The notes under the pieces are model-generated. The model saw nothing but the letters and a program-made list of their open reading frames with translations. It was not told the DNA's origin and did no database searches. Below are positions 21,024 through 43,104 of a DNA stretch of 52,889 nt, in pieces. Each line of letters starts with the position of its first letter. Within the stretch, counting starts at the first letter, position 1. A program made the position numbers and the translations under genes. The stretch spans positions 1 through 52,889 of the forward strand of contig DBHI01000108.1 in the NCBI GenBank assembly GCA_002296125.1, in the 5' to 3' direction. This DNA is from Anaerolineales bacterium UBA832 (GTDB lineage: Bacteria; Chloroflexota; Anaerolineae; Anaerolineales; UBA11657).

Positions 21024-24000
21024 TTATTTATTGTTAATCAATTTTAGTCTATCTTTTATTGATTTTGGCAGTAAATCAAGCATCAGACGTTTTTCATGTT
21101 GATTGAATACATCAACATATAATACTATGGAAAGATACGAGAATATACCTATTATAATACTTAACAAAATGCTTATTCTTGATAACGTAATGATTACAGT
21201 AACCAATAATGTTGCTGCCATGAGTATTCGTCCAAACAATTTACTAAATGGTGTAGGACTTAGTTGTTTGTAAACTGTGGATTGAAATAATATTCCAAGT
21301 AGTAGTTCTGATAAAATTGTTGAAATAGCAGCAGCATAGAAACCATATATAGGTATGAAAATTATATTGACTACAATATTAAATATTGTGGCTATAAGGA
21401 ATGCGTTAGTCAACTTTCGTACTTGATTGATTGCAACTAATAGATAATTTGTAACGCTATTGATCCATCCGAAAGGAATTGACCAGACCATGATTTGTAG
21501 AGCTATTGCTCCTGTTGGAAGGAATTCTTCGCCTCCTAGAATGGTTATAAGAAACGGTGCTAGTGTGCTAGTTATTATGGCAATAGGAATTGCTATTACG
21601 AAAAGTAACTTGATCGCAAAATGATAGGTATTTATTAGCGACTTTTTATCTGTGTTAGCTTGTTGACTCATTAGTGGAAATATTGCAAAAGTAAAAAACG
21701 ATGGAACAATATTAAATGCTTCAATAAATTTATATGCAGTACTATAGCGACCTACTTCTGATTGTCCACGCATAGTTCTAATCATTGGAATATCTACTTT
21801 AAAGAATAAGGTAGCTAACAAATGATTTATCATAAGAGGGAAAGATTCACTAACCATTTGTTTTTGAAGATCCAGGTTAAATTCTGTTTGTGGTTTGAAA
21901 AATAGTTTTCTAATAATAACTATAAGAGCTGTTAAGGTTAATATATTTACAATGATGCTGGCACCAGCAAGCCCAACAAATCCATATCCTAATATGAGAG
22001 CGATTAATCCCAGTATGACTTTTAAGATAGTGCTAAAACTACTAATTGCAGCTGGATATTCAGCTTTTTCAAATGCGTAGAATACAGCTGTGATTCCAGT
22101 AGATATGGTTGAAAATAACATACCAATACTCAGGAGTACAATTGCTAAAATGGTATTTTGACCTAGTAGTCCTGAATTAATTTCATAAAGATAAATTACT
22201 CCTAGAAAGATTGGCATCGTTATTAATAACAAACCAATTCTCAAAATAGTACTATTTGCAAAAAATTGGTTGATATTGGCGAGATTTTTTGATGCTTCGC
22301 GTGTTAGCCAGGTGTTGAGACCAAAGTTTGCCCAAATTTCAAGCCAACCAACTAGTACTATTGCTGTTGCATAATTGCCTGCTTCAGCTGGACCTAGCAT
22401 TCTTAGGTAAAACATGGCAAATATGAAATCTACACTGCGATTGAGTAAGTTAAATCCCATAGGGGCTATGCTATTTTTTGCTATAGTATTGAGTCGAGAT
22501 AATCTTTTGTTCTTATAAGATATATGCCAAATCCATATAAAAAACAAAATTATCAGTGAAATAATAGAGATTGCTGAAATTACACTTCCTATTCTAAAAG
22601 ATAATGGGCTATATATTAATCTGATTGTATGTGATCCTTTTTCGAGAGGAATTGCTCTAAAATTACCGTGTGCTCTCAGTATTATTGATTTTGTTTCTGA
22701 TATTTGCTGAGTATTTTGGACATATGCTTGCCATCCATTATCAAAAGAATCTGTAATTACTACGTAACCGGGTTGAGACATTTCAGTGTATATTTCAAGT
22801 TTGTTAGACTTAGTAGAGGTAATTTTTGCTTTACCTATATTACAATCTGTTCGATTTGATGTGTTAGAGGAATTGCTATTGCTAATATTGTCTGCAGATT
22901 CTAGGACTAGAAAATGGTGTGGATCGTATTCTGTCAAATCAAGATCATTATTATGATTGAATACAATACAACTTTCTGGTAGTGTGTATACCCTTGGTAA
23001 GACTTTGTTGTTTTCATAGATAAACAATTCGTTTTCATATATTAGTGTGAATTTTTCCGAGTTGTCAATGTTTTGATTTGTAACAATATATTTCACATTT
23101 AACAAATCGAGTAGTGGCGAGTGCAGACCTTTCCAAGTGGTGATTGGTGATATTCTATTATATTGAAGAAGGTTTTGTGGTTCTATTAAGTTCATATAAT
23201 CAACATATTGTTTTGGTATGATAGAGTCATATCCTCGTATGTCTTTCATTCTAAAAAGCCAAGCTGAATTCGCATTAAGTATTTTGTCTCCATTTGGATC
23301 ATATGTGGTAAATCTCCAGTGACTTTTGTCTTTTTCCAAGAACTCTATGATGTCTGGTTTGTAATTTAGAATGTCCGGATTGCTGTTTGAATTAAAACCA
23401 TAACCAGCAAATATCAGATCAGTTACCAAAATTAACCATGCTATAAATTTCCATTTGGAGTGTGTAGCTGTATTAATCTTTTGTACAATCCATCCACTAA
23501 GTACTAATAGTATTGCACATTGTAGTATCCATCTGGCTTCATAGGAGAAAAACATTTGTGTTCCGGAAAATATAGTACTAGCACCAGATAATTCAGATAA
23601 GAGTGTTGATAGGATAGGATCAATTTCATTGAAAAATATGTAACTTACAAATAGACTTGCCAATAAAATAATACCGGAAAATATACTAATTTTAGATATA
23701 GTGTTAGCTGTTTTATGTAAATATCTTTGATTAAAATTTACAAAAGATTGGATGGTTGATGCTGATAGTAGAGATATACACAAACTTAATGGCCAAGACC
23801 AACGAAAAGGAGAATGTAATTGATCTAACGATGGTAAGTAGTATATTAATGCATACAGTGGAGTACCGAATATAAATCCCAAACATAAGATAGTCATTAT
23901 TAACCAAAATCCTACGTCAGACAATTGTTTTGTGGGAGATGTTTTTCTAGAAATATAGTTTATCAAAGCAATTATCGTTAGTAATATTGGTAGAATTCCT

Positions 24001-25097
24001 AGATAAATTCCTCCTTCTACATAGTTTTTTATTCCCCAATCTATAGTATTTGTATTTTCTCCATGACTGTTTTTGGTAACATTTTTCCAGTCCCAGGAGA
24101 ACATGTCCAAATATTGATGGTGTGTAGGGTTTCCGAAGAAATTGGGAACTAACATAGTTATTATTCGTCTGTAAGGATAGCCCCATTGTTGTACTTCCGA
24201 TAGGCTCGCTGATTCTTCACGAAAATTGTTGCTAGCTGCTTCAATCAGTGGAAATAGCTGTATAGCACTTAAGAGGAGTCCAAAACTAACAATTAAACAT
24301 ATAAGCAATAACATATTGATTAACATTTTGAAATCTATTATTTTCTTTAATAGTAATTTCAGTAAATGCCAGGATGAATAACTCGCTACAATGAGTAGAG
24401 AATAAGCAACAACTTCTGGATGACCAGCTAGTATTTGTAAACCAATTGCTATAGCACCTATACATATCCAAGGTATATGGGATGTCTTACCTAATATGGT
24501 GCGTTTATATATTAATCCGTCTATTGACAATAGTATTGTTGGGAGCCAGGCGGCACCTGCGACTATCATTGGAAAGACTGCACTAACTATCATGAATAAG
24601 CTTATTTGATATATTGTTGATGCAGTTAAGCAACTCCACTTGTCAAATTTCAGTGATCTACAGAATAAATACATGCTTATTCCTGCAATAATATATTGTG
24701 ATAGGATGAACCATCCATATGCTTTAGAAATTGGCAAAATATGAAACAATATACTAAATGGATATAACATGGAATGTTGTGCATTTGCTAAGAATGGGGT
24801 TCCACCAAATAAATAAGGGTTCCATAGAGGAATCTCTTTTGCATTTAATGATTCGCTAATAAAGTTTTGCCATACATAATTTTGTAAAACTAAATCGGAA
24901 AGCAAAGCATTGTGAGGGGGTTGATCAGATTGTAATATATCAATATCAGACGAAGATTTCCAGGGCTCAAATTCAATAAGGTTTTCAGTGGGTACAAGTG
25001 TGTTTTTTCCAATAGTGACATTTGCAAATATCAAAATTGGTGGCAGTATGAGTGCCAAAGGTACAAATAGTTTTTGTACAACTTTTAGTAGATTCAC
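21024..25097 (-). CDS. fusion protein: N-terminal YfhO-type GT-C glycosyltransferase-like membrane domain plus C-terminal MOP-superfamily (Wzx-like) polysaccharide flippase domain
   Basis: 1357 aa. Residues ~1-862 (22512-25097) are polytopic with LWNPYLFGGTPFLANAQHSMLYPF and a large extracytoplasmic segment before a final TM, which is YfhO-like. Residues ~866-1357 (21027-22500) have 12 or more TMs beginning NRSVDFIFAMFYLRMLGPAEAGNYA, the Wzx/polysaccharide-biosynthesis-protein pattern. Confidence 0.75.
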   Translation of the reverse strand: MNLLKVVQKLFVPLALILPPILIFANVTIGKNTLVPTENLIEFEPWKSSSDIDILQSDQPPHNALLSDLVLQNYVWQNFISESLNAKEIPLWNPYLFGGTPFLANAQHSMLYPFSILFHILPISKAYGWFILSQYIIAGISMYLFCRSLKFDKWSCLTASTIYQISLFMIVSAVFPMIVAGAAWLPTILLSIDGLIYKRTILGKTSHIPWICIGAIAIGLQILAGHPEVVAYSLLIVASYSSWHLLKLLLKKIIDFKMLINMLLLICLIVSFGLLLSAIQLFPLIEAASNNFREESASLSEVQQWGYPYRRIITMLVPNFFGNPTHHQYLDMFSWDWKNVTKNSHGENTNTIDWGIKNYVEGGIYLGILPILLTIIALINYISRKTSPTKQLSDVGFWLIMTILCLGFIFGTPLYALIYYLPSLDQLHSPFRWSWPLSLCISLLSASTIQSFVNFNQRYLHKTANTISKISIFSGIILLASLFVSYIFFNEIDPILSTLLSELSGASTIFSGTQMFFSYEARWILQCAILLVLSGWIVQKINTATHSKWKFIAWLILVTDLIFAGYGFNSNSNPDILNYKPDIIEFLEKDKSHWRFTTYDPNGDKILNANSAWLFRMKDIRGYDSIIPKQYVDYMNLIEPQNLLQYNRISPITTWKGLHSPLLDLLNVKYIVTNQNIDNSEKFTLIYENELFIYENNKVLPRVYTLPESCIVFNHNNDLDLTEYDPHHFLVLESADNISNSNSSNTSNRTDCNIGKAKITSTKSNKLEIYTEMSQPGYVVITDSFDNGWQAYVQNTQQISETKSIILRAHGNFRAIPLEKGSHTIRLIYSPLSFRIGSVISAISIISLIILFFIWIWHISYKNKRLSRLNTIAKNSIAPMGFNLLNRSVDFIFAMFYLRMLGPAEAGNYATAIVLVGWLEIWANFGLNTWLTREASKNLANINQFFANSTILRIGLLLITMPIFLGVIYLYEINSGLLGQNTILAIVLLSIGMLFSTISTGITAVFYAFEKAEYPAAISSFSTILKVILGLIALILGYGFVGLAGASIIVNILTLTALIVIIRKLFFKPQTEFNLDLQKQMVSESFPLMINHLLATLFFKVDIPMIRTMRGQSEVGRYSTAYKFIEAFNIVPSFFTFAIFPLMSQQANTDKKSLINTYHFAIKLLFVIAIPIAIITSTLAPFLITILGGEEFLPTGAIALQIMVWSIPFGWINSVTNYLLVAINQVRKLTNAFLIATIFNIVVNIIFIPIYGFYAAAISTILSELLLGILFQSTVYKQLSPTPFSKLFGRILMAATLLVTVIITLSRISILLSIIIGIFSYLSIVLYVDVFNQHEKRLMLDLLPKSIKDRLKLINNK

Positions 25098-25834
25098 GAA
25101 TAACGGTCAGTATGTGTAAGTTTGCGATGTCGTTGCCCTACTTGTATAGTACGCCATACTGCTTCGAGCTTGATTTTTTGTGACATCTTAGAACGTCCTA
25201 TACGTCTATCTTCAAAATATATGGGTGTCTCATGTACTTTGTATTCTAGTTTTTCGGTAAGATATGCCATTTCAACTTGAAACACATATCCATTTGAACG
25301 TACTCTAGGCAATCCAATTCCAATCAAAGTATTTCGACGCCAAATTTTAAATCCTGCAGTTACATCTTTGACTTGTAATCCTAGAAGTATTTTAGCATAT
25401 ATGCTGTTAGCAAAAATACTGAGCAATTTGCGTCCCAATCCCCAATGTTCATCTAATCTTCCTCCTTTCACATATCTTGATCCTACTACTACATCATTAC
25501 TAGATAATAGATCTAACATTTTAGGCAGATATCTGGGTGAGTGTGAAAAATCACAGTCCATTTGGACTATTGCTTCTACGTTTGTTTGCAAAACATGAGT
25601 AAAGCCTGTGATATACGCACTGCCTAATCCTCGTTCGCCTATCCTATGCATCACTTCAATTTGTTGTGGATATTCTTTAGCAAGTTCGTCAGCAATTTGA
25701 CCTGTCCCATCTGGAGAGTTGTCATCAACAATCAATAATTTTATTTGAGGAATATTGAGCGACAGCAATGCCATAACCATCTTTTCTATGTTTTCAGATT
25801 CGTTATATGTAGGCAGTACGACGGCTATATTCAT
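25094..25834 (-). CDS. GT2 polyprenol-phosphate sugar (mannose/glucose) synthase, Ppm1/DPM1-like
   Basis: VVLPTYNESENI, IVDDNSPDGT, VVQMDCDFSH and the C-terminal YFEDRRIGRSKM are typical of dolichol/polyprenol-P mannosyltransferases. The stop overlaps the next gene's start by 4 nt. Confidence 0.85.
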   Translation of the reverse strand: MNIAVVLPTYNESENIEKMVMALLSLNIPQIKLLIVDDNSPDGTGQIADELAKEYPQQIEVMHRIGERGLGSAYITGFTHVLQTNVEAIVQMDCDFSHSPRYLPKMLDLLSSNDVVVGSRYVKGGRLDEHWGLGRKLLSIFANSIYAKILLGLQVKDVTAGFKIWRRNTLIGIGLPRVRSNGYVFQVEMAYLTEKLEYKVHETPIYFEDRRIGRSKMSQKIKLEAVWRTIQVGQRHRKLTHTDRYS

Positions 25835-25879: not shown

Positions 25880-26557
25880 TTATTTCTCAGTAATGTTAAT
25901 TTTATTCATGACAATACCATCATCTTGGGAATTCTGTGGATTTCTCTCTGGTATAGCAAATACTGTTTCCATTCCCTCAATTACCTCACCGAAAATTGTA
26001 TGGTTATTGTTTAAATGAGGAGTAGGTACATGAGTAATAAAAAATTGACTGCCATTTGTATTAGGACCTGCATTCGCCATCGCTAAAAGTCCGGGCTTAT
26101 CAAAAGTTAATCCATTATTTACTTCGTCTTCAAACATATATCCAGGTCCTCCTGAACCTGAACCAGTTGGATCTCCACCCTGTACCATGAAATTATGAAT
26201 GACGCGGTGGAATGTTACTCCATCATAGTATCCTTGTTTTGCCAAAAAGACAAAATTATTTACTGTGACAGGAGATTCACTACTAAATAGGCGTAATGTT
26301 ATATTGCCGAGTTCAGTTTCAATTACAGCAGTATATTGTTTTTGTAGATTTATAGTCATTTCTGGTGGTTTGGACCATTGTTGTTGTGACATATCTGATT
26401 CCTTTGATTCTATAGGTTGATTATTTTGAGAACGAAATAATACTAGTAACAAAAAAGTTAATACTAATGCTGCAATAATAGTGATAGACCATCGTGTTAC
26501 TGGACGATTAGTTTTTGGGGTTCTATCTTTCTTATTGGCTTGGTCACTTTGTGTCAT
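25880..26557 (-). CDS. peptidyl-prolyl cis-trans isomerase, cyclophilin type, N-terminally membrane-anchored
   Basis: One N-terminal TM helix ([19 protein letters not shown]), then the cyclophilin core [15 protein letters not shown]...NGSQFFIT. Confidence 0.9.
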
Positions 26558-26625: not shown

Positions 26626-29403
26626 TTATTGTGGTATTTTGATGCTACTGATTTTGATATGATTTTCACCTTCTGATAGTAATAATCTTTCTCCTGTATC
26701 TGGAATATACAATCCTATTTCAAGATCATATTTTCCGCTTTCAAGTGTTAGTGTATGTGTGTCAATCACATATTCATCCGATATCCATAAGCTAGTTGGA
26801 TAAGTATTTTGTATTGGTTGACTGTCATTTTGAGTTATCAAGGTTCCATCTTCATTATAAGCATGTATGAAAATTTTATAATTGCTATTTGTTTCTCTAA
26901 TGCATTTCCAGTGTAGTTCTATATCGATTTGTGGTGTTTCGTCATAATTTATGTTATATCCTACCATTTGTAACATATTTCCAAAAGTAAAATTTGTTTT
27001 CTGCTCTGCAAAAGGGGTTGTCCATATTCGGTTGGTTGATACTATGTTTATAGTACTAATTGTAGTATGGGAATTTTTGTTGTTGTCAGTGGTGGAGTTA
27101 ATCTTTAAGTTGTACTCACCAGATTTCATGTTTTTAGGGATCTTTATTGATCTATGGTCTATTATATTTTCGTTTACTGACCATAAACTTGTACTATAAG
27201 TTCCTTGTACAGGTTCAGTAGAGTCAATATTATGGTTATTTATACTTACATTAATTATTTTGTTGTGATCGATTTTATTTTTTGCTCTCCAATAGAGTGA
27301 TAGGGGTATAGATTCACCTGCTATAAATGATGTTTTAGGTAAATCAAATCCGAACAAATATAAATTGCCAAAATTGTGAGAAATGATTTGGGATGGTACT
27401 GGTACTATGTTATTCTTAGAAGTTCCTTGTATGAAAATTGGTCCTATCTGTGCAGTATTTGTAACATTTCCATTTTTATCAGTAGCACCAATTGTTTTAT
27501 TTGTGTCAGGACTATAAATATTTGTAGATAATACATAGTTTCCTGGTGGCATGCCGTTTGGAAGATCGAATGTTAAGCGCACTATGATAATATCGTTTGT
27601 TGTCCATTGTGAAGATTTATAACTATCATTAAATGCTTGATTCCAATAGTGTTCAGATTTATCAACTAAATCTGCTACAAACCTTAGATTTTCTTCTGAA
27701 TTGTCTAGAATTCTTATTTTTAAATCAATGTTTATTTCATCTGATGATGATTCAGCGAATCTAAAACCAATGATTTCAGCTATTTGTCCAAATCTTGAAT
27801 AAAAGTTTTGAAAGTTAAGTTGAGTTATTTCTGTTGATGTATCAAATTCGAAAATGTTTATCTTGTCATTAGGATCATTTGACTTAATATCCCATTGGTT
27901 TATCCATTCTCTCGGTGGCTCTGCTGATTGCGGAAATATATATAATGTTGACCCTTTGTCAGGTATTGCTAATGTGTTTCCGTCTCTTAGCCACTTGATT
28001 TTTTCATAATCTTTAGCTAGATAAGCTACAGTTGGGTGTTGATAATGAAGTGAACTGACATAAATGTTGTCAAAGTTTTCGGATTTTTTGTTAAGAGTGT
28101 TTGCTACTTGTACCATATCTCCATGATTTGACATAAATTGTGTGCTTTGTTGAGCCCATATAAAATAATAATCTTTTGTAGTGATGGTAAATGTATAAAT
28201 GCCTAAAAGTGTAACTGCCAAAATATTTGTCCATTTTGCAGGATATTTGTATCTTAGTTTAGATGTTAATATATTTGTTAGACTTAAATAACCCATGGCA
28301 GGAAATACCAACAAGAATGGAAACAAACCAAATGCTCTTACATTTGATGGAAATACTTCATTGATTGCTAGAGCTGTTGGCAGTAGAAAGACAGGTAACC
28401 AAATAACAAGTAATAATTCAGCTGATTTGTGTAAGGATATCTTGTCATTATAGTATTGTTTTGCGTTGATGATATTCCGTATTGTTAATGTTAATCCTAT
28501 GACAAACATTGAACCATTTAAAGGGTCTAACAGTGGTTTGTAGGGTATGTTGAAACGATCATATGGTTCACCTGATATAAACAACATTTTCAAAGAACCA
28601 GTTAGACCTTCTAAAAGTAAATGGTATTTTCCATATGTTGGACCAACTTGTTGTATACGGATTAACAAGTCTTGAGGGAATTGAACAAAGTGATATATTA
28701 GTGGTGTTATCATTATGCTAAATCCAGCAATCAAGTAGACAATGTTTTTTAGGTTTAGTATTCTATTGACAGAATGTTTGTTTTGTTTGTATGATTTAAT
28801 ATAAGTTGTTAGAAAGGGTATAGAACCAATAATTAGTACTATTGGCATTGCTCGAGAGGCTAAATATGTATGAAAAGTGAGTCCAGCAAAAATTCCAGCA
28901 AAGCAAAATAGTTTTGGTTGTCCCAATCGCAGTGCTTTAAATAGCATTCCGATAAAAAGTGCTTGTATAGCAGGTTGAGTAATTGCTCTGAGACCAAACC
29001 GAGACCAGACAAGGTGACTAAACGAGAAAGCTAATAACATGGAAGTGGTGATTGCGATTAGTTTGACGTTTGTTTTATGATGTAAAATTTGTTTTGTTGC
29101 AAAAAATGTTATTGGTACTGTAATTATTCCCCAAAATGTTGCGGTAATTTTTAAGGAGAAAATTGATGATCCTATGAGCTGATAAATTAATGCTGCCGAA
29201 TAGAAAAACAATACTTCTTTACCAGTGTATGATCGAATAAATGAGGGTCTGTAATTTTCAAATGCTATTTCTTCTATCAATATTGCATTAGCTGCAATAT
29301 CATAGTGAAGTCCAGGAGGTACTGTATTTATTGCAAAGATGCGTAATACAGCAGCTGCTAATGTAATGAGTGTAAGAAATTGAATAGATCTTTTGTAATC
29401 CAT
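26626..29403 (-). CDS. GT-C glycosyltransferase (ArnT/PMT family 39/83-like) with a large C-terminal extracytoplasmic region of three tandem repeats
   Basis: The N-terminal ~410 aa is polytopic with a first-loop PPGLHYDIAANA and ArnT/PMT_2-like organisation. The C-terminal half holds three ~115-aa repeats (about 27424-27795, 27034-27372 and 26629-26985) sharing FGN..-GF/GY...W......Y.TSLW....I.D......P....G.Y.L. Confidence 0.75.
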   Translation of the reverse strand: MDYKRSIQFLTLITLAAAVLRIFAINTVPPGLHYDIAANAILIEEIAFENYRPSFIRSYTGKEVLFFYSAALIYQLIGSSIFSLKITATFWGIITVPITFFATKQILHHKTNVKLIAITTSMLLAFSFSHLVWSRFGLRAITQPAIQALFIGMLFKALRLGQPKLFCFAGIFAGLTFHTYLASRAMPIVLIIGSIPFLTTYIKSYKQNKHSVNRILNLKNIVYLIAGFSIMITPLIYHFVQFPQDLLIRIQQVGPTYGKYHLLLEGLTGSLKMLFISGEPYDRFNIPYKPLLDPLNGSMFVIGLTLTIRNIINAKQYYNDKISLHKSAELLLVIWLPVFLLPTALAINEVFPSNVRAFGLFPFLLVFPAMGYLSLTNILTSKLRYKYPAKWTNILAVTLLGIYTFTITTKDYYFIWAQQSTQFMSNHGDMVQVANTLNKKSENFDNIYVSSLHYQHPTVAYLAKDYEKIKWLRDGNTLAIPDKGSTLYIFPQSAEPPREWINQWDIKSNDPNDKINIFEFDTSTEITQLNFQNFYSRFGQIAEIIGFRFAESSSDEINIDLKIRILDNSEENLRFVADLVDKSEHYWNQAFNDSYKSSQWTTNDIIIVRLTFDLPNGMPPGNYVLSTNIYSPDTNKTIGATDKNGNVTNTAQIGPIFIQGTSKNNIVPVPSQIISHNFGNLYLFGFDLPKTSFIAGESIPLSLYWRAKNKIDHNKIINVSINNHNIDSTEPVQGTYSTSLWSVNENIIDHRSIKIPKNMKSGEYNLKINSTTDNNKNSHTTISTINIVSTNRIWTTPFAEQKTNFTFGNMLQMVGYNINYDETPQIDIELHWKCIRETNSNYKIFIHAYNEDGTLITQNDSQPIQNTYPTSLWISDEYVIDTHTLTLESGKYDLEIGLYIPDTGERLLLSEGENHIKISSIKIPQ

Positions 29404-29512: not shown

Positions 29513-31300
29513 ATGAAAAGCGAATTTAAAATAAAAGGAAAACTGAAAACCAACAAAAATTCTGCTATTAAATGGTTAATTTCTCATGCTCAGTATCACT
29601 CTTGGGCACTTATTGGTATGATTGTGCCTGCGTTTGCCAATGCTGCTTTAGCTGCTTTGGTCCCATTATTAATTGGTAATGCATTTGAAATGTTAGTTCA
29701 GAGTATGCCGAAACCAGACTATAAATATTTGTTGTGGGCTGCAACTATGATAGTTGTTTCTCAGGTTGGTCGTGCTATTGGAATTTTGATTCGCAATATT
29801 TCTGCTGAGTTGATTGGGCAGCGCATGGAACGAAATACTCGTGATGAGTTGTATGTTAGTTTGATTGGAAAAAATATGTCTTTTCATGATACTTATACAG
29901 TTGGTGATGTAATGGCGCGTGCCACTAATGATGTGAGAGAAATTAATTTGATGTTTAATCCTGGACTTAATTTAGTGATTGGTTCCGGTAGTTTTCTTAT
30001 TATGCCTATAATTTTTTCTTGGCAGATTAACCCTGTTTTGATCTTATCACCATTAGTATTTTTGTTTCTTTATGTGATTGCATTGTGGCAATATTTGGGT
30101 GAATTACGACCTGTATCTGAGGTTGCTAGAAGATCATTTGGAGAATTAAATGATCTTCTAGCACAAGTTATTGATGGGATTGAGACAGTTAAGGGTGCTG
30201 CGAGGGAAACATATGAAACAAACAGGTTTTTATCAAAAGCAAGAGAATATCGTGATGCATTTGTAAAGCAAGGATGGATTGAAGCTAGATTTCTCCCATT
30301 GTTGCTTATGGGTTTGGTAAATGCCTTTGGTTTTTGGCATGCAGTCAGTTTGTTTGAGTCAGGTTTAGTGAATGTGGGTGATGTGATTGCTTATATGGGT
30401 TTATTATCTTTATTTGGTTTTCCAGTTTTCGTTTCATTATTTTCTTATTCTCAAGTAGCATTGGGTATTGCTGGAGCGCGTCGTATGCTTGAATTAATTC
30501 GTGGCGAGAATATTCTTGATGAAAATATCGATGGATATACAAATAATATGCTTGGTCAAGTTAGATTTGAGAATGTTTCGTTTGGATATACTAATGGTTC
30601 TCAAGTAGTGGAGAATTTATCGTTTGATGTAAAACCTGGACAGATTGTTGCTTTAGTTGGGCAAACTGGTTCTGGAAAATCTACGATTTTGAAATTAATC
30701 AACAGAACTTATGATGTGACATCTGGGAAAATATTGGTAGATAACATTGATGTTTGTGATTGGAGTTTAGCATCATTAAGAAAGCAAATTTCCATTATTG
30801 AACAGGATTTGTTTTTGTTTTCTAGGTCTATAGCTGAAAATATATCGTTTGGCATTCCAGAATCTGATCAATTGCTTATTGAAAAAGCTGCTAGAGCAGC
30901 TCAGGCACACGATTTTATCATGGAATTTAAGGATGGTTATAATACTATTATTGGTGAACGGGGAGCAACATTATCGGGTGGTCAACGTCAGCGTCTTGCT
31001 TTGGCCCGAGCATTTCTTACTGATCCCAGAATATTGATATTAGATGATTCTACTAGTGCTATTGATAGTGAAACTGAAGATCAGATACAGAGAGCGATTC
31101 GCGCGGCATCTCAGGGTCGTACTACTTTTATTATTACACATCGTCTGTCTCAGATACGTTGGGCTGACATGATTTTAGTATTAAAAAATGGTGAAATAGT
31201 GGATAGTGGCAATCACGAGAAGTTAATAAATTCTTCGGATATTTACAAAAGAATTTTTTCTAATCATTTAGATAAAAATGAGAAGGGTGACAAGGTTTAA
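29513..31300 (+). CDS. ABC exporter, fused permease/ATPase subunit (degenerate-site partner, Walker B DD)
   Basis: Six-TM exporter domain, then Walker A GQTGSGKST, signature LSGGQRQR, and Walker B ILILDDS (Asp in place of the catalytic Glu). Confidence 0.9.
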   Translation: MKSEFKIKGKLKTNKNSAIKWLISHAQYHSWALIGMIVPAFANAALAALVPLLIGNAFEMLVQSMPKPDYKYLLWAATMIVVSQVGRAIGILIRNISAELIGQRMERNTRDELYVSLIGKNMSFHDTYTVGDVMARATNDVREINLMFNPGLNLVIGSGSFLIMPIIFSWQINPVLILSPLVFLFLYVIALWQYLGELRPVSEVARRSFGELNDLLAQVIDGIETVKGAARETYETNRFLSKAREYRDAFVKQGWIEARFLPLLLMGLVNAFGFWHAVSLFESGLVNVGDVIAYMGLLSLFGFPVFVSLFSYSQVALGIAGARRMLELIRGENILDENIDGYTNNMLGQVRFENVSFGYTNGSQVVENLSFDVKPGQIVALVGQTGSGKSTILKLINRTYDVTSGKILVDNIDVCDWSLASLRKQISIIEQDLFLFSRSIAENISFGIPESDQLLIEKAARAAQAHDFIMEFKDGYNTIIGERGATLSGGQRQRLALARAFLTDPRILILDDSTSAIDSETEDQIQRAIRAASQGRTTFIITHRLSQIRWADMILVLKNGEIVDSGNHEKLINSSDIYKRIFSNHLDKNEKGDKV

Positions 31301-33107
31301 TGATATGACTTCAGTTTTTGGTGGACTCTCTACTGATAAATATGATAGGTATTATACTGACAAAGTTTTGGTACAACGAATTTGGCATTATGTGAGGCCA
31401 TTTAGATCTCAATTATTTATTGTTTTCACTTGTCTGTTGTTGGTGGCTGCTTTATATGCATCTTTTCCTGTATTAGTTTCTGAGGGTGTAGATGAGATTG
31501 CATTAAGTGGTGATCAGAAAGTGCTAGTTCGTTTAATGGTGTTCATTGCTGTTGCTGGTGTATCTATATGGTTGTTGAGTTATGTTCGTTTTGGGATGTT
31601 TAACAAGCTGATTGGGGATGTTGTTTTGGAAATGCGTAACGATGCATTTAAGGCATCTGTATTTCATGATTTAGGTTTTTATGATGAGCATATATCTGGC
31701 AAAATTATAAGTAGGGTTACTTCTGATACACACGAATTTGGTCAGACAATGCGTCTAATTGGTGATATTTTAAATCAAATGGCAGTTGTTGTTGTTTTAA
31801 TTGTTGTCCTTTTTAGGATAGAGTGGCGTTTGGCTTGCTTGCAGCTAGTATTGTCTCCCGTTCTGTTTTTATTAGTGAAAGGATGGAGAAAGATTGCGAG
31901 ACGTGTAACACGACAGGGAGCTAGAGCGATGGCTAATGTTAATTCTGCTATTCAAGAAGCAATAACTGGAATTACTATTGCAAAGAATTTTCGTCAAGAA
32001 GGTTATATTTATGGAGAGTTTGATGAAGTTAATCAAGAATCTTATAGAATTAATTTTCGTAGAGGATTAGTTCTATCTACTGTATTTCCAGTTTTGCATG
32101 GACTTGTAGGAGTTGGTGTAGCAATAATGTTATATGCTGGAGGAAGAGTGGCTGGTATAGGCTTGATTTCTGCGGGAGCTTGGTACTTGTTTGTTTCAAC
32201 TGTGGATAGGTTTTGGTTTCCAATCATGCAATTGGCAGCATTCTGGAGTCAGTTCCAAGCAGGATTAGCAGCTGCGGAACGTGTTTTTGCATTAATAGAT
32301 ACAGAATCAGCGGTACATCAAAAGGGAAATGACTATGACGAATTATTGTCAGCTGAAATAGTTTTTCAAAATGTTCGTTTTGCATATGAAGAAAATCAAG
32401 ATGTACTTGATGACTTTAATTTACGTATAGATACAGGACAAAGTGTAGCTCTTGTTGGACATACAGGAGCTGGTAAGTCTTCACTTCTTAAGTTGTTGTC
32501 TAGGTTTTATGAATTTCAGGATGGTTCTATATTAGTTGATGGAAGAGATATTCGTTCATTAAACCTCCAGGCATATAGGCGACAAATAGGCATCGTTTCT
32601 CAGTCTCCATTCTTGTTTTCAGGTACTTTAGCCGACAATATTCGTTATGCATCTCCAGATTCTAATGACAATGATATATTATATGTTGCTCATACTATTG
32701 GTTCTGGAGAGTGGCTTAGTGATTTACCACATGGTATTTATACTGATGTAGGTGAAAGAGGATCAAAACTTTCATTAGGACAACGCCAGTTAGTAGCTCT
32801 AAGTAGAGTCTTGCTACAAGATCCATTGTTGTTTTTGTTGGATGAAGCTACTGCTAGTATTGATCCATTTACTGAGTCTCAAATCCAGGAAGCCCTTGAT
32901 CTAATAATGGATAATCGTACTAGCATATTGATAGCTCATAGGCTGTCTACAGTTCAATCTTCGGATTTGATAATTGTAATGAACAAAGGAAGAATAATAG
33001 AAAGTGGTAGCCATAATGATTTGATGGTTTTATCAGGTCATTATTCTGATTTATATAATACTTACTTTAGACACCAGTCCTTTGAATATATTGAAGACTT
33101 AAACTAG
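31278..33107 (+). CDS. ABC exporter, fused permease/ATPase subunit (consensus Walker B, degenerate signature)
   Basis: Walker A GHTGAGKSS, signature LSLGQRQ (non-canonical), Walker B LFLLDEATASID. The start is ATG 31278, which overlaps the upstream gene, or ATG 31305. Confidence 0.9.
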   Translation: MRRVTRFNDMTSVFGGLSTDKYDRYYTDKVLVQRIWHYVRPFRSQLFIVFTCLLLVAALYASFPVLVSEGVDEIALSGDQKVLVRLMVFIAVAGVSIWLLSYVRFGMFNKLIGDVVLEMRNDAFKASVFHDLGFYDEHISGKIISRVTSDTHEFGQTMRLIGDILNQMAVVVVLIVVLFRIEWRLACLQLVLSPVLFLLVKGWRKIARRVTRQGARAMANVNSAIQEAITGITIAKNFRQEGYIYGEFDEVNQESYRINFRRGLVLSTVFPVLHGLVGVGVAIMLYAGGRVAGIGLISAGAWYLFVSTVDRFWFPIMQLAAFWSQFQAGLAAAERVFALIDTESAVHQKGNDYDELLSAEIVFQNVRFAYEENQDVLDDFNLRIDTGQSVALVGHTGAGKSSLLKLLSRFYEFQDGSILVDGRDIRSLNLQAYRRQIGIVSQSPFLFSGTLADNIRYASPDSNDNDILYVAHTIGSGEWLSDLPHGIYTDVGERGSKLSLGQRQLVALSRVLLQDPLLFLLDEATASIDPFTESQIQEALDLIMDNRTSILIAHRLSTVQSSDLIIVMNKGRIIESGSHNDLMVLSGHYSDLYNTYFRHQSFEYIEDLN

Positions 33108-33138: not shown

Positions 33139-34830
33139 TTAACCAAATAAGTCTGTTTTAGCTTGTTCTGCTTTATGTTTTGCTGTCTGGCTACTTGATG
33201 TTTGTTGGTTAATTTCCGCATATAGCTTTGGTCCATATTCACGTGTGCGAATGACAACTGGCATTGGAACTGCATGACCCATTATAAGTGCTTGCTGTTG
33301 CGTATCTAGTCTAGCTAAGACTTCTCGCAGCGCTCCAGCACCACTGACACCTGAAAATACTGCTCGGATATCGGATTCGTTGTCTAGTAGACAAGTTACT
33401 CGTGTTCCAATTTGGCTCATTACTTCGTCATCAATGCCACTAGGTCTTTGATCTACTACAAGAAGGGTAACATTATATTTTCTTAATTCTCGTGCAATTA
33501 TGCCAAAAATAGTATGTTGGGACAATTCAGGGGTTAAGAATTTGTGAGCTTCTTCAATAACTATCATGAGTGGATTTGGATCTTCACCTCTCTTCCCAAA
33601 AGCTTTGTTTTTTGCAGAGACATATCTTTCATGGATTCTTCTTGTCAAATAATTTGCTACAAACATATATGCGGCCAGACTATTGTCATATGTGCCAAAT
33701 TCTAAGACAATGCTTGTACCAGAGTTTAATTTTTGAAACAGAATTTCAATGAAATCATCACTTACATGTTCTTTTAGGAATTTCATGTTGCGAAAGAGTT
33801 CAAATTTTCTTTGTATTGCTCCTAGTGAGCTTTTGATAAGATCACCTTGTTCTATGAATTCATCAAGCTCATTTTGATCCTGTTCTTGATCTGACAGCAA
33901 CTTTTTAAACCAATTTTTTCCTAAGCGTCTTCGTAAGAAATATAGAGCATTTACTTGTACATCACTGAGTGCTAGTACACCTGCTAACATTGCGATATCT
34001 TCAGGTTCTATTGCATCATATGAAATGTATAACTCTCCGTCAGCTCTGTCACCTCTTGCTAGTGAAGTTTTCTTATCAAGTGTAATTACATTGATATGAT
34101 TGGAATCAAATAATTGTTGTAGTCCTTTGTATGTTTGTCCATGTTCGTTTTGAATACCCCAACCATAATCATTGTGCATATCAAAGATTAAGCAAGACGC
34201 TTTTCTGCTTTTTACTATTCCAGATAGTAATGTTCTGGTTATAAAAGATTTTCCAGTGCCACTTTTACCGAATACTCCAGAGGATCTTTCAATAAATCTG
34301 TCCAAATTTACATTGATTGGTACTTGATCCATTTCTAAAGGGTTGCCTAGGTAAAAATGATTTTCATCAGCTTTTCCAAAGATTTGTGTTACATCTTCTT
34401 CATTTGCTTGGCTGACTATTGAGAAGTGTGTAGGTATTGTTTTAACAGGTTTAGGTTTTTTATCATTTTTTTCCAATACAAGCATTGGGGCAATATTAAC
34501 TATACCGTATGATAAAGTGCTTCTGTATATTTCTATAGAATATTTATCATTAGTGTCTGGTGGATTAGTTTCTATATAAGGATTGTTATGGGCAAGTGCA
34601 ACATCAGTTACTATACAAAAGAATCGTGTATTGGTTAATCCTTGTACCACTACGTATCGTCCAACAGCTATTTGTTCTATCATACTACCAGGCACTTCAC
34701 CAGAGTCCAGTTTGACAGTAAGTCCCTTAGATAAAGACCCATCAATGATGGTACCAATACGCGTGTTTAATAGCGTTTCATCAGTATTTGATTCATCAGA
34801 AAACTTTTCTAAATCAGATGTTTTGTTCAT
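33139..34830 (-). CDS. HerA-like hexameric ATPase (HAS-barrel plus DUF87/FtsK-like P-loop)
   Basis: N-terminal barrel-like segment IGTIIDGSLSKGLTVKL...GRYVVV. Walker A GVFGKSGTGKSF, Walker B PLMIVIEEAHKF, and the HerA-typical LLVVDQRPSGID. Confidence 0.8.
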   Translation of the reverse strand: MNKTSDLEKFSDESNTDETLLNTRIGTIIDGSLSKGLTVKLDSGEVPGSMIEQIAVGRYVVVQGLTNTRFFCIVTDVALAHNNPYIETNPPDTNDKYSIEIYRSTLSYGIVNIAPMLVLEKNDKKPKPVKTIPTHFSIVSQANEEDVTQIFGKADENHFYLGNPLEMDQVPINVNLDRFIERSSGVFGKSGTGKSFITRTLLSGIVKSRKASCLIFDMHNDYGWGIQNEHGQTYKGLQQLFDSNHINVITLDKKTSLARGDRADGELYISYDAIEPEDIAMLAGVLALSDVQVNALYFLRRRLGKNWFKKLLSDQEQDQNELDEFIEQGDLIKSSLGAIQRKFELFRNMKFLKEHVSDDFIEILFQKLNSGTSIVLEFGTYDNSLAAYMFVANYLTRRIHERYVSAKNKAFGKRGEDPNPLMIVIEEAHKFLTPELSQHTIFGIIARELRKYNVTLLVVDQRPSGIDDEVMSQIGTRVTCLLDNESDIRAVFSGVSGAGALREVLARLDTQQQALIMGHAVPMPVVIRTREYGPKLYAEINQQTSSSQTAKHKAEQAKTDLFG

Positions 34831-35449
34831 AGTTTACCTTTAAGCGACGCAAAATTGAGTCAAGTTTGTATGGGTCATGAGATAATAAGCGTGCTAGTTT
34901 TTTACCACATTCAAACAAAAATAATCCTTGCTCTTCAATAGACCTTGCTTCTGCAGCTCTTCTCAATGTTGTAATAATAAGCTCGTCGATTGAAGGCTCG
35001 TTAGAGTTTAGTATTAGAGTGAGGTAATCTGTACTTTTTGTAAATTGAACAATATCATTTTTAGCACAAGTATTTATATAGTCCAGTGTTACAGGTGGTT
35101 GAGGAGGTAGACTATAAATAATAGTGTCATTATAAACATATCCAATAGATAGAACACTGACTTCAATTGGAACTTGCCTATTATTTCGTTGATCTTGTAT
35201 ATATGTTTCTGGAAGTTGAGGTACAGTTATAAGTTGTTTGACAAGTAGATCGTCTTCAATGAATATGTTATATATAACTCCTATTATGTCAATTTTTCCT
35301 TGTTGGGCTGGGGCTTTAACAAAATCACCAAACAGAGGTACATCGGGTTCAGGTAAATTGCATCCAAATGTGAATCCAGTGGTGTCACTCCTTAGCATTC
35401 TTCCAATAGGTATTGAAGATGAATTGTTGTTCATATTTTTGTCACTCAT
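34814..35449 (-). CDS. hypothetical protein (211 aa) between the NurA-like and HerA-like genes
   Basis: The start overlaps the upstream stop (ATGA at 35446-35449), and the 3' end overlaps the HerA start by 17 nt. The N-terminus IGRMLRSDTTGFTFGC...GDFVKAP...IIGVIYNI looks like a small beta-barrel and the C-terminus is helical. No family recognised. Confidence 0.6.
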   Translation of the reverse strand: MSDKNMNNNSSSIPIGRMLRSDTTGFTFGCNLPEPDVPLFGDFVKAPAQQGKIDIIGVIYNIFIEDDLLVKQLITVPQLPETYIQDQRNNRQVPIEVSVLSIGYVYNDTIIYSLPPQPPVTLDYINTCAKNDIVQFTKSTDYLTLILNSNEPSIDELIITTLRRAAEARSIEEQGLFLFECGKKLARLLSHDPYKLDSILRRLKVNYEQNI

Positions 35450-42726: not shown

Positions 42727-43104
42727 ATGAAAACACTTCTTATTCGTTGGAGCGTGAATGTAGTATCCATATGGGTAGTGCAACATATTGTAGCAGAAGG
42801 ATTTAATAATATAGGTATGACTGTAAATGCATTTATTATTAATGGGTTAATCTTGACAATAGTAGATTCAATTGTGCGTCCAATCGTTAGACTTGTCACA
42901 TGTCCAATAATTATGGCTACTTTAGGTTTAGGAGGTTTTTTGGTAAATGTTTGTATGTTGCTTTTATCTGGATGGATAGGTTTGCAATTTGGTTATGGGT
43001 TTCAAATTGTGGGATTATTAAATGTTATTTATGCTTCATTAATTTTAATTGTGACGAGGTTTGGTATGAACTTGATACTAAGATTTATAATAAGATCTAA
43101 GTAA
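42727..43104 (+). CDS. DUF360 / phage-holin-4-2 family membrane protein
   Basis: About 125 aa with four TM helices. LILTIVDSIVRPIVRLVTCPIIMATLGLGGFLVN matches the DUF360 core pattern. Confidence 0.7.
   Translation: MKTLLIRWSVNVVSIWVVQHIVAEGFNNIGMTVNAFIINGLILTIVDSIVRPIVRLVTCPIIMATLGLGGFLVNVCMLLLSGWIGLQFGYGFQIVGLLNVIYASLILIVTRFGMNLILRFIIRSK

What the first reader, a model, noticed from the sequence alone, without database searches (positions are those of the whole stretch)
21024..25834. Three-component extracytoplasmic glycosylation pathway compressed into two genes: GT2 synthase plus a YfhO::MOP-flippase fusion
The 1357-aa ORF joins a YfhO-type GT-C membrane glycosyltransferase-like domain (aa ~1-862, with a large outward-facing segment and a terminal TM) to a complete 12+ TM Wzx/MOP-type flippase domain (aa ~866-1357). 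Its start overlaps by 4 nt the stop of a Ppm1/CsbB-like GT2 polyprenyl-phosphate sugar synthase (25094-25834). The established three-component scheme, as in CsbB/GtcA/YfhO-type wall glycosylation, has three steps. A GT2 enzyme loads sugar on the lipid carrier, a flippase moves it outward, and a GT-C enzyme transfers it to an envelope acceptor. Here the flippase and transferase steps are physically fused, and the flippase is MOP-type rather than a small GtrA/GtcA protein. I do not recognise this domain architecture. It would act as a Rosetta-stone link between the flippase and the GT-C enzyme.
Basis: partly seen in the sequence, partly recalled or inferred. Interest (0 to 1): 0.65.

Follow-up and report, generated by a model that had tools for sequence, protein, structure and literature searches.

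The report
Glycosyltransferase fused to a lipid-sugar flippase
A marine Chloroflexota genome encodes one 1357-residue membrane protein that joins an outward-facing sugar-transferring enzyme (GT-C/YfhO type) to a Wzx/MurJ-type lipid-sugar flippase, right after the gene for the enzyme that loads sugar onto the lipid carrier. The fusion is real, is conserved in hundreds of Chloroflexota species, and I found no description of it in the searchable literature.

Summary
ORF 21024-25097(-) encodes 1357 aa, and its GTG start overlaps the TGA stop of a 246-aa GT2 gene by 4 nt.

- **N-half (aa 1-858):** a divergent YfhO-family GT-C enzyme. Pfam YfhO hits are weak but collinear. The AF2 model (pLDDT 87) matches AftD, ArnT, AftA and PglB. 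D68 in the first outside loop is invariant.
- **C-half (aa 868-1357):** a 14-TM MOP flippase. Polysacc_synt scores E 7e-27, and the model matches WzxE and MurJ.
- **GT2:** a soluble Dol-P-Man-synthase-type enzyme (5MLZ, E 9e-32).
- **Junction:** four independent metagenome assemblies show no indel there. The single ORF is kept in 74 of 75 species loci, and at least 507 species genomes encode a relative of the protein.
- **Linkage:** the GT2 lies directly upstream in 45 of 70 loci. A second, PMT_2-type GT-C is also recurrently linked.

[quoted passage not shown] The function is inferred, not shown. Wzx-type flippases in such systems are already proposed (GacK, AglR, WpsG), so only the fusion is new. 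No split orthologous gene pair was found. I rate it a new variant of a known kind, of moderate interest.

The parts
25094..25834 (-). GT2 polyprenyl-phosphate hexose synthase, DPM1/Ppm1 type. 246 aa, catalytic domain only, no TM segment.
   Evidence: Pfam Glycos_transf_2 E 4.5e-27. Best solved relative is P. furiosus Dol-P-Man synthase 5MLZ, E 9.3e-32, over its catalytic residues 23-238. NCBIfam best hits are AglJ, Dol-P-hexose transferase and PpgS, all below their cut-offs. The maximum 19-aa hydropathy is 1.56, so there is no TM segment.
21024..25097 (-). Whole fusion ORF: 1357 aa with a GTG start that overlaps the GT2 stop by 4 nt.
   Evidence: Conserved full length in more than 120 homologues and as one ORF in 74 of 75 loci.
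22524..25097 (-). N-half, aa 1-858: YfhO-family GT-C glycosyltransferase. It has 13 TM helices, a large outside domain, and a 14th TM helix that returns the chain to the cytoplasm.
   Evidence: Pfam YfhO hits are collinear. AF2 model has pLDDT 87.2 and pTM 0.89. Foldseek hits AftD, ArnT, AftA, PglB, Emb and Pmt4 at probability 1.0. The unfused relative P0204 is named 'YfhO family protein' by NCBI.
24732..25016 (-). First outside loop (aa 28-122). It carries a conserved acidic position 38 (E here, D in at least 90% of homologues), invariant D68 (codon 24894-24896), and the invariant PLWNP..F.G.PF motif (aa 90-102). This is the putative catalytic loop.
   Evidence: Invariant-column list of alignment A1. 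Loop placement from the model helices and the positive-inside count. Coordinates checked.
22599..23399 (-). Outside soluble domain (aa 567-833), mostly beta strands. It probably binds the acceptor.
   Evidence: DSSP of the AF2 model. It matches the C-terminal part of the YfhO model, positions 752-835.
22497..22598 (-). TM14 (aa 834-858) plus a 9-residue cytoplasmic linker, ISYKNKRLS (aa 859-867). This is the fusion joint.
   Evidence: The linker is K/R-rich and short, so TM14 and flippase TM1 must lie side by side in the membrane. That last step is inference.
21027..22496 (-). C-half, aa 868-1357: MOP-superfamily (Wzx/PST-type) lipid-linked sugar flippase with 14 TM helices and both ends in the cytoplasm.
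   Evidence: Pfam Polysacc_synt E 6.9e-27 and Polysacc_synt_3 E 4.3e-19. NCBIfam Wzx_EPS E 2.3e-10, far below its cut-off. AF2 pLDDT 90.9. Foldseek hits WzxE 9g9n (TM 0.84 on the target) and MurJ (TM 0.78-0.80 on the query).
25880..26557 (-). Membrane-anchored cyclophilin PPIase facing outward. It is an operon neighbour only in the closest relatives.
   Evidence: Pfam Pro_isomerase E 1.6e-47. TM anchor at aa 23-41 after a K/R-rich tail. Adjacent in L001-L005 only.
26626..29403 (-). Second GT-C enzyme, PMT_2/ArnT type, 925 aa, with Ig-like outside domains. It is recurrently linked to the fusion.
   Evidence: PMT_2 scores only 18.6 bits in the window protein, but all 17 family members match it (best E 3.5e-13) and 3 match PMT. 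D35 is invariant. It lies directly downstream of the fusion in 20 of 64 loci and upstream in the window clade.

Best explanation
[quoted passage not shown] The proposed sequence is as follows.
1. The soluble DPM1/Ppm1-type GT2 loads a hexose, most likely mannose or glucose, from a nucleotide sugar onto polyprenyl phosphate at the inner face of the membrane.
2. The C-terminal 14-TM Wzx/MurJ-like domain of the fusion flips the polyprenyl-phosphate sugar to the outer face.
3. The N-terminal YfhO-type GT-C domain takes this lipid-linked donor and transfers the sugar to an unknown envelope acceptor (polysaccharide, lipoglycan or protein). It uses the acidic residues of its first outside loop and its outside beta-rich domain.
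4. The 9-residue linker forces the two membrane domains to sit side by side, so the donor can be handed over within one protein.
5. The linked PMT_2-type GT-C probably draws on the same flipped donor.

What is shown: the gene structure, both folds, the topology, the conservation and the gene linkage. What is inferred: the substrate, the direction of hand-over, the acceptor, and any binding of the TM-less GT2 to the fusion.
For: - The fusion is real and ancient.
- Both halves are under constraint. A1 has 104 invariant columns in the N-half. The flippase half is 67% identical in near relatives against 54% for the N-half, with invariant charged residues such as R40, R74, E151, E154, D243 and K304 (flippase-domain numbering).
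- The N-half has a GT-C fold. Its best structural matches all use polyprenyl-phosphate-linked donors: AftD, ArnT, AftA, Emb, Pmt and PglB.
- The C-half matches WzxE and MurJ.
- The topology is N-in, 14+14 TM, C-in. Short inside loops hold 16 K/R in 112 residues, against 3 in 104 for outside loops. D68 and the beta domain lie outside.
- The Dol-P-Man-synthase-like GT2 lies directly upstream on the same strand in 45 of 70 species loci. The median gap is 43 nt. The gap is overlapping or at most 20 nt in 18 of 48 loci, and exactly -4 nt in 7.
- The only other recurrent glyco-gene next to the fusion is a PMT_2-type GT-C, found in different orders in different clades.
- No phosphoglycosyltransferase, Wzy or GT4 family is among the 22 most widely conserved neighbour families.
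- The window contains no GtrA-like small flippase.
- Wzx-type flippases are already proposed to act on monophosphate-linked sugars: GacK, AglR and WpsG.
Against: - There is no biochemical evidence. Canonical Wzx/PST flippases move polyprenyl-diphosphate oligosaccharides.
- The GT2 is not adjacent in 25 of 70 loci.
- Close unfused N-half relatives (P0128, P0137, P0138) sit in Wzx/Wzy-style clusters with GT4s, GT2s and Wzy_C proteins. This shows that this GT-C clade can also work in repeat-unit pathways.
- No split orthologous flippase partner was found.
- The YfhO sequence match is weak, at 33.9 bits.
- The interface between the two halves could not be modelled, because the 1200-aa limit applied and no model coordinates were returned.
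Confidence: 0.55

Rival explanations
1. Repeat-unit pathway. The Wzx domain flips a polyprenyl-diphosphate (or monophosphate) oligosaccharide. The YfhO-type GT-C domain then acts as its polymerase or ligase, transferring it en bloc, like WpsI/WpsJ or an oligosaccharyltransferase. The GT2 would only supply a side-branch sugar or a primer.
For: The Pfam and NCBIfam matches are to Wzx/PST flippases, whose usual cargo is an oligosaccharide. Unfused relatives P0128, P0137 and P0138 lie in clusters with GT4s, GT2s, a separate Polysacc_synt flippase and Wzy_C-TPR proteins. In L. lactis, a Wzx (WpsG) feeds GT-C enzymes that polymerise or ligate an oligosaccharide. PglB is among the fold matches.
Against: No initiating phosphoglycosyltransferase and no additional cytoplasmic GT family appears among the conserved neighbours of the fused gene in 80 loci. 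The neighbours are housekeeping genes (AsnRS, RtcB, RuvABC, GreA) plus the GT2 and the PMT_2 GT-C. The consistently adjacent GT2 is of the monophosphate-sugar synthase type.
Confidence: 0.17
2. Acceptor-flipping model. The flippase half exports the lipid-linked acceptor, such as a repeat unit or a glycolipid anchor. The GT-C half decorates it as it emerges. The GT2-made donor crosses the membrane by another route.
For: This is compatible with the fusion, the topology and the GT2 linkage. In B. anthracis, flipped SCWP subunits are thought to be glycosylated outside by a GT-C before polymerisation.
Against: It needs an extra, unseen donor flippase. No GtrA-like gene is in the window. No acceptor-synthesis genes are linked to the fusion.
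Confidence: 0.13
3. The flippase half no longer transports anything. It serves only as a membrane scaffold or as an anchor for the TM-less GT2.
For: The GT2 lacks a TM segment and needs a membrane partner, as GacI needs GacJ. In a subset of loci the spacing implies translational coupling.
Against: The flippase half is the more conserved half. It keeps many invariant polar and charged intramembrane residues, and it gives a confident, complete 14-TM MOP model.
Confidence: 0.08
4. Assembly or sequencing artefact: the locus really holds two separate genes.
For: One public assembly carries the gene as 667-aa and 689-aa pieces.
Against: That break lies inside the N-half, not at the junction. Four independent run assemblies show no indel across 22100-22900. 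The single ORF is kept in 74 of 75 species loci and in more than 120 homologues down to 40% identity.
Confidence: 0.01

Closest known systems
CsbB / GtcA / YfhO (B. subtilis) and GtlA / GtcA / GtlB (Listeria) lipoteichoic-acid glycosylation systems
   Same: Both have a GT2 that makes a polyprenyl-P-sugar and a YfhO-family GT-C that transfers the sugar outside the membrane. The overall logic is the same (papers found; review read).
   Different: There the flippase is a small GtrA-family protein on its own gene, and the GT2 carries its own TM helices. Here the flippase is a 14-TM MOP domain fused to the GT-C, and the GT2 is soluble. The N-half is only weakly similar to the YfhO model (33.9 bits).
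GacI / GacJ / GacK / GacL (S. pyogenes group A carbohydrate GlcNAc side chain)
   Same: Both combine a TM-less GT-A synthase, a Wzx-family flippase proposed to flip a monophosphate-linked sugar, and a GT-C transferase.
   Different: That system has four separate proteins, including the small activator GacJ. GacL is not a YfhO-type enzyme, and there is no fusion.
AglD / AglR / AglS (Haloferax volcanii, final mannose of the S-layer N-glycan)
   Same: A Dol-P-Man synthase, a Wzx-like protein proposed to flip or help flip Dol-P-Man, and an outside Dol-P-Man mannosyltransferase. The window GT2's best NCBIfam hits are archaeal Agl-type enzymes.
   Different: That system is archaeal, has separate genes, and has a protein-bound glycan as acceptor.
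WpsA/B - WpsG - WpsI/WpsJ (L. lactis polysaccharide pellicle)
   Same: A Wzx flippase hands a monophosphate-linked glycan to GT-C enzymes outside the membrane.
   Different: The cargo is an oligosaccharide built by several cytoplasmic GTs. The genes are separate and sit in a large dedicated cluster.
Actinobacterial Ppm1 / Pmt and PPM-dependent GT-C mannosyltransferases, with the GtrA-like DpmF flippase
   Same: A TM-less Ppm1-type synthase supplies several GT-C enzymes, including a PMT-type one. The window operon likewise holds a DPMS-like GT2 and a PMT_2-type GT-C. DpmF is proposed in the preprint read. The Ppm1 and Pmt facts come from my own knowledge.
   Different: The proposed flippase there is GtrA-like and separate. 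The known fusion in M. tuberculosis joins Ppm1 to Lnt (own knowledge), not a flippase to a GT-C.

Membership tests
GT-C fold glycosyltransferases | Polytopic N-terminal membrane domain (8-13 TM helices) with the GT-C fold | tested here: met
   The AF2 model has pLDDT 87.2. Foldseek hits AftD, ArnT, AftA, PglB, EmbA/B and Pmt4 at probability 1.0, with E down to 8e-6 and TM 0.52 on ArnT.
GT-C fold glycosyltransferases | Conserved acidic residue(s) in the first extracytoplasmic loop | tested here: met
   D68 is invariant, and position 38 is D or E in at least 90% of 52 sequences. The loop is placed outside by the positive-inside count. A catalytic role was not tested.
GT-C fold glycosyltransferases | Uses a polyprenyl-phosphate-linked sugar donor | not testable with these tools
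   There is only indirect support: a DPMS-type GT2 is adjacent in 45 of 70 loci.
YfhO family (Pfam PF09586) | Score above the Pfam gathering threshold, with a match along the whole model | tested here: met
   The window protein scores 33.9 bits against a cut-off of 28.5. Homologue P0112 scores 54.2 bits. The stretches are collinear (model 74-168, 338-597, 752-835). Some homologues fall below the cut-off (P0016, 22 bits), so this is a divergent branch.
YfhO family (Pfam PF09586) | Architecture of about 13 TM helices, a large outside domain and a terminal TM helix, about 830-870 aa in all | tested here: met
   Model helices and topology. Unfused relatives are 823-914 aa, and NCBI names one of them 'YfhO family protein'.
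MOP superfamily, Wzx/PST-type flippase | Sequence match to the Polysacc_synt models | tested here: met
   PF01943 E 6.9e-27 (95 bits, cut-off 28.2) and PF13440 E 4.3e-19.
MOP superfamily, Wzx/PST-type flippase | 12-14 TM MOP fold with both ends in the cytoplasm | tested here: met
   AF2 pLDDT 90.9. Foldseek hits WzxE (TM 0.84 on the target) and MurJ (TM 0.78-0.80 on the query). The topology count supports both ends being inside.
MOP superfamily, Wzx/PST-type flippase | Membership of a named Wzx equivalog | tested here: not met
   The only NCBIfam hit is Wzx_EPS at 39.8 bits against a cut-off of 800. No solved structure matches by sequence. It is a member of the superfamily, not of any characterised Wzx orthologue group.
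MOP superfamily, Wzx/PST-type flippase | Translocates a lipid-linked sugar | not testable with these tools
Polyprenyl-phosphate hexose synthases (DPM1/Ppm1/DPMS GT2) | GT-A catalytic domain closest to Dol-P-Man synthase | tested here: met
   5MLZ E 9.3e-32 over the catalytic domain. ArnC and GtrB are far weaker matches.
Polyprenyl-phosphate hexose synthases (DPM1/Ppm1/DPMS GT2) | Named equivalog or known sugar specificity | tested here: not met
   All NCBIfam hits are far below their cut-offs (best is AglJ at 58 bits against 325). The sugar is not known.
Three-/multi-component transmembrane glycosylation systems | Synthase, flippase and GT-C genes are functionally linked | tested here: met
   The flippase and GT-C are covalently joined in 74 of 75 loci. 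The GT2 is adjacent in 45 of 70 loci. A second GT-C is linked in 20 of 64 loci and in the window clade.
Three-/multi-component transmembrane glycosylation systems | Demonstrated modification of an envelope glycoconjugate | not testable with these tools
   The acceptor is unknown, and I found no glycan data for these organisms.
PMT_2 / ArnT-type GT-C (for the 925-aa neighbour) | Match to the PMT_2 model and an acidic residue in the first loop | tested here: inconclusive
   The window protein scores 18.6 bits, below the cut-off of 26.1. However, 17 of 17 family members match PMT_2 at E<=0.01 (best 3.5e-13), and D35 is invariant.

The most novel reading that the evidence does not exclude
The fusion is a substrate-channelling machine. 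A MOP-type domain flips polyprenyl-phosphate mannose (or another hexose) and passes it laterally, within one polypeptide, into the donor groove of the GT-C domain. The same membrane protein also docks the TM-less synthase. Synthesis, flipping and transfer would then occur in one complex. This would give the first sequence-level proof that Wzx-type MOP transporters handle monophosphate-linked monosaccharide donors, and that GT-C enzymes can receive their donor directly from a flippase.
Probability: 0.3. Interest if true: 0.7.

Novelty: new variant of a known kind. Interest (0 to 1): 0.5.

Why it matters
Which protein flips polyprenyl-monophosphate sugars is still poorly settled. GtrA-type and Wzx-type candidates rest mostly on genetics. 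A likely decaprenyl-P-mannose flippase in corynebacteria was proposed only in a 2025-26 preprint.

A covalent GT-C::Wzx fusion, conserved across a whole class of bacteria and usually preceded by a Dol-P-Man-synthase-type gene, is independent genomic evidence that a MOP flippase works hand in hand with a GT-C enzyme. It also offers a single polypeptide in which coupling of flipping and transfer can be studied structurally and biochemically.

Finally, it marks an unstudied envelope glycosylation pathway that appears common in Anaerolineae and related Chloroflexota, including abundant marine plankton lineages.

Tried and rejected
- **Sequence search of the PDB.** The N-half and the flippase half gave no hits even at E 1-10. 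Fold comparison was needed instead.
- **First hydropathy script.** It produced overlapping segments and was discarded. Topology was redone from the model helices.
- **Split orthologous gene pair.**
  - P0121 (887 aa) looked unfused but is cut by a contig end.
  - Genuine unfused relatives exist.
  - The flippases in their clusters are only about 20% identical to the fused flippase half, and their GT2s are not DPMS-type orthologues.
  - The clean Rosetta-stone partner was therefore not found.
- **Further flippase-half search.** I ran no further search on it, because the top 120 rows would again be fused proteins.
- **RNA evidence.** One metatranscriptome yields only three or four contigs of about 160 nt on the operon. 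This is not enough to show co-transcription.
- **Literature.** Searches for YfhO with Chloroflexi, and for Wzx with GT-C and 'fused', found no description of this architecture.
- **Full-length structure.** It was not possible (1200-aa limit), and model coordinates are not returned, so the interface between the halves could not be examined.
Full report
**Observation.** The minus strand carries a 1357-aa ORF (21024-25097, GTG start) and a 246-aa ORF (25094-25834). They overlap in the tetranucleotide GTGA, which holds the start of the long ORF and the TGA stop of the short one. The window is AT-rich (33-37% G+C) throughout, with no compositional break at the locus.

**The C-half.** Pfam places aa 873-1145 in Polysacc_synt (E 6.9e-27), with supporting Polysacc_synt_3, MatE and MurJ hits. 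NCBIfam gives only a far-below-cut-off Wzx_EPS hit. An AlphaFold2 model of aa 860-1357, built on 51 homologues, has mean pLDDT 90.9. It superposes on the lipid III flippase WzxE (TM 0.84 normalised on the target) and on MurJ (TM 0.78-0.80 on the query). It is therefore a complete 14-TM MOP-superfamily flippase, but not a member of any characterised Wzx orthologue group.

**The N-half.**
- The Pfam YfhO hit is weak, at 33.9 bits against a cut-off of 28.5. However, the matched stretches in the window protein and its homologues are collinear along the whole 835-position model.
- NCBI names an unfused relative 'YfhO family protein'.
- Sequence search of the PDB finds nothing.
- The AF2 model of aa 1-881 is confident (pLDDT 87.2, pTM 0.89). 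Its top structural matches are all GT-C enzymes: AftD, ArnT, AftA, PglB, EmbA/B and Pmt4, each at probability 1.0.
- An alignment of 52 sequences has 104 invariant columns in this half. They include D68 and the PLWNP..F.G.PF motif in the first outside loop. Position 38 is acidic in at least 90% of sequences.

**Topology.** I combined the model helices with the positive-inside rule. Short loops assigned to the cytoplasm hold 16 K/R in 112 residues, and those assigned outside hold 3 in 104. The resulting layout has these features:
- The N-terminus is inside.
- Thirteen TM helices follow, with the acidic loop outside.
- A 267-residue beta-rich domain lies outside.
- TM14 (aa 834-858) returns the chain to the cytoplasm.
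- A 9-residue K/R-rich linker (ISYKNKRLS) leads straight into flippase TM1.
- Both flippase ends are inside.

Both halves are thus correctly oriented. Because the linker is so short, they must be packed side by side; that last step is inference.

**Is the fusion real?** Yes.
- Per-run assemblies of four marine metagenome runs cover 22100-22900 with no gap and one SNP.
- The same 1357-aa protein is found in NCBI, ENA and Tara assemblies.
- More than 120 full-length homologues of 1324-1467 aa at 40-97% identity exist.
- A scan of one genome per species found at least 507 genomes encoding a relative. The best 80 are all Chloroflexota, mostly Anaerolineales, Promineifilaceae/Ardenticatenaceae and Thermoflexales. 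One contig labelled Patescibacteria looks mis-binned.
- The two halves form one ORF in 74 of 75 informative loci.
- More distant fused members carry Dehalococcoidia and other Chloroflexota labels.
- One assembly splits the gene into 667-aa and 689-aa pieces, but that break lies inside the N-half, not at the junction.

**The GT2.** Its best solved relative is the Pyrococcus furiosus Dol-P-Man synthase catalytic domain (5MLZ, E 9.3e-32). ArnC and GtrB are far weaker matches. It has no TM segment. It is therefore of the DPM1/Ppm1 kind, which needs a membrane partner, rather than the CsbB/GtrB kind. Its sugar specificity cannot be read from sequence, because all NCBIfam hits are far below their cut-offs.

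**Gene context.**
- The window order is PMT_2-type GT-C (925 aa), membrane-anchored outward-facing cyclophilin, GT2, fusion, then AsnRS, RtcB and inositol monophosphatase.
- Across the 80 species loci, the GT2 lies directly upstream on the same strand in 45 of 70 loci that have enough sequence. The median spacing is 43 nt. The genes overlap, or are at most 20 nt apart, in 18 of 48 loci, and the 4-nt overlap recurs in 7.
- The 925-aa protein's family matches PMT_2 in 17 of 17 members, with a best E of 3.5e-13 and an invariant D35. It lies directly downstream of the fusion in 20 of 64 loci, and upstream in the window clade. Linkage that survives rearrangement argues for a shared function.
- The other conserved neighbours are Roadblock/LC7, V4R and response-regulator genes, a GH1 hydrolase, RuvA/RuvC, YebC and GreA.
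- No initiating phosphoglycosyltransferase, Wzy or GT4 family is among the 22 most widely conserved neighbour families.
- The window has no GtrA-like small membrane protein. Its only small multi-TM ORF (42727-43104) belongs to the Phage_holin_4_2 family.

**Unfused relatives.** A HMMER scan of 1.84 billion representative proteins with the N-half gave 1685 hits at E<=1e-30. The best 150 comprise 44 full fused proteins, 20 partial fused proteins, many fragments, and about 13 genuine stand-alone proteins of 763-963 aa that end just after TM14. P0121 is merely cut by a contig end.

A rough neighbour-joining tree, without support values, shows two patterns. Seven stand-alone proteins form a separate deep clade. 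Six are nested among fused proteins, which suggests later loss of the flippase half or the rise of paralogues.

Two of the nested ones (P0128, P0137) lie in large polysaccharide clusters with GT4s, GT2s, a PMT_2-type GT-C and a separate Polysacc_synt flippase. P0137's cluster also holds a Wzy_C-TPR protein, and a third nested relative (P0138) lies next to one. Those separate flippases are only about 20% identical to the fused flippase half, and the GT2s there are not DPMS-type orthologues. This GT-C clade can therefore also serve repeat-unit pathways. A clean split-gene counterpart of the fusion was not found.

1. The GT2 makes a polyprenyl-P-hexose.
2. The MOP half flips it.
3. The YfhO-type half, and probably the linked PMT_2-type enzyme, transfer the sugar to an envelope acceptor.

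I put this at about 0.55. The main rivals are as follows:
- A repeat-unit pathway in which the GT-C half polymerises or ligates a flipped oligosaccharide (0.17).
- A model in which the flippase half exports the acceptor rather than the donor (0.13).
- A flippase half that is only a scaffold (0.08).
- An artefact, which the data exclude.

**Comparison with known systems.** The logic is that of CsbB/GtcA/YfhO. The review of these systems states that Wzx-type flippases have already been suggested in place of GtrA-type ones, with GacK as the example. AglR is proposed to flip, or help flip, Dol-P-Man for AglS. WpsG feeds GT-C enzymes in L. lactis.

What I could not find anywhere is the covalent GT-C::flippase fusion. 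In the databases these proteins carry only generic names such as 'oligosaccharide flippase family protein' or 'O-antigen/teichoic acid export membrane protein'.

**Verdict.** The feature is real. It is a new variant of a known kind, of moderate interest (0.5). Expression evidence is minimal: a few small metatranscriptome contigs.

Noticed in passing
window 25880-26557 (-): A cyclophilin-type PPIase with an N-terminal TM anchor, so its catalytic domain faces outward. It sits between the PMT_2-type GT-C and the GT2. This arrangement occurs only in the window and its closest relatives (L001-L005). Together with a PMT-like enzyme and a DPMS-like GT2, it hints at glycosylation of secreted proteins, but that is speculation.
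   Followed up: partly
window 26626-29403 (-): A 925-aa PMT_2/ArnT-type GT-C with C-terminal Ig-like outside domains (weak DUF4625 and MG2 hits). It is recurrently linked to the fusion in different gene orders.
   Followed up: partly
window 33139-36633 (-): A HerA (DUF87) gene, a 211-aa ORF with no Pfam match, and a NurA gene lie in a row. This is a bacterial HerA-NurA pair with an unknown middle gene.
   Followed up: no
window 29513-33107 (+): Two half-size ABC exporter genes (ABC_membrane plus ABC_tran) lie divergent from the GT-C operon. The same arrangement is seen in L001, L003 and L004. I did not examine whether they relate to the glycosylation genes.
   Followed up: no
L009-L072, about 0.2-3 kb upstream of the fusion (e.g. 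L009 7108-9055): In most other Anaerolineae loci, a conserved trio of Roadblock/LC7, V4R-domain and response-regulator genes precedes the GT2 and the fusion. The trio is absent from the window.
   Followed up: partly
proteins P0277 (667 aa) and P0279 (689 aa), both recorded on a 218,684-bp NCBI contig: One public assembly of a close relative (same 90%-identity protein cluster as the window protein) carries the fusion gene as two pieces. The break lies inside the outside domain of the N-half. It is either a sequencing error or a pseudogene in that population.
   Followed up: no
L042 (DATLAB010000023.1): This contig is labelled 'Patescibacteria group bacterium'. It has the same gene order and nearly the same scores as L041, a Chloroflexia MAG. 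It is probably mis-binned.
   Followed up: no
L085, L087 and the contig of P0138: Unfused close relatives of the N-half lie in Wzx/Wzy-style polysaccharide clusters. Two of them are next to a divergent PMT_2-type GT-C, and two are next to a Wzy_C-TPR protein. A YfhO-like plus PMT_2-like GT-C pair therefore recurs even without the fusion.
   Followed up: partly
window 42727-43104 (+): A small 4-TM protein of the Phage_holin_4_2 family (PF04020, E 3e-16). It is the only small multi-TM ORF in the window.
   Followed up: no
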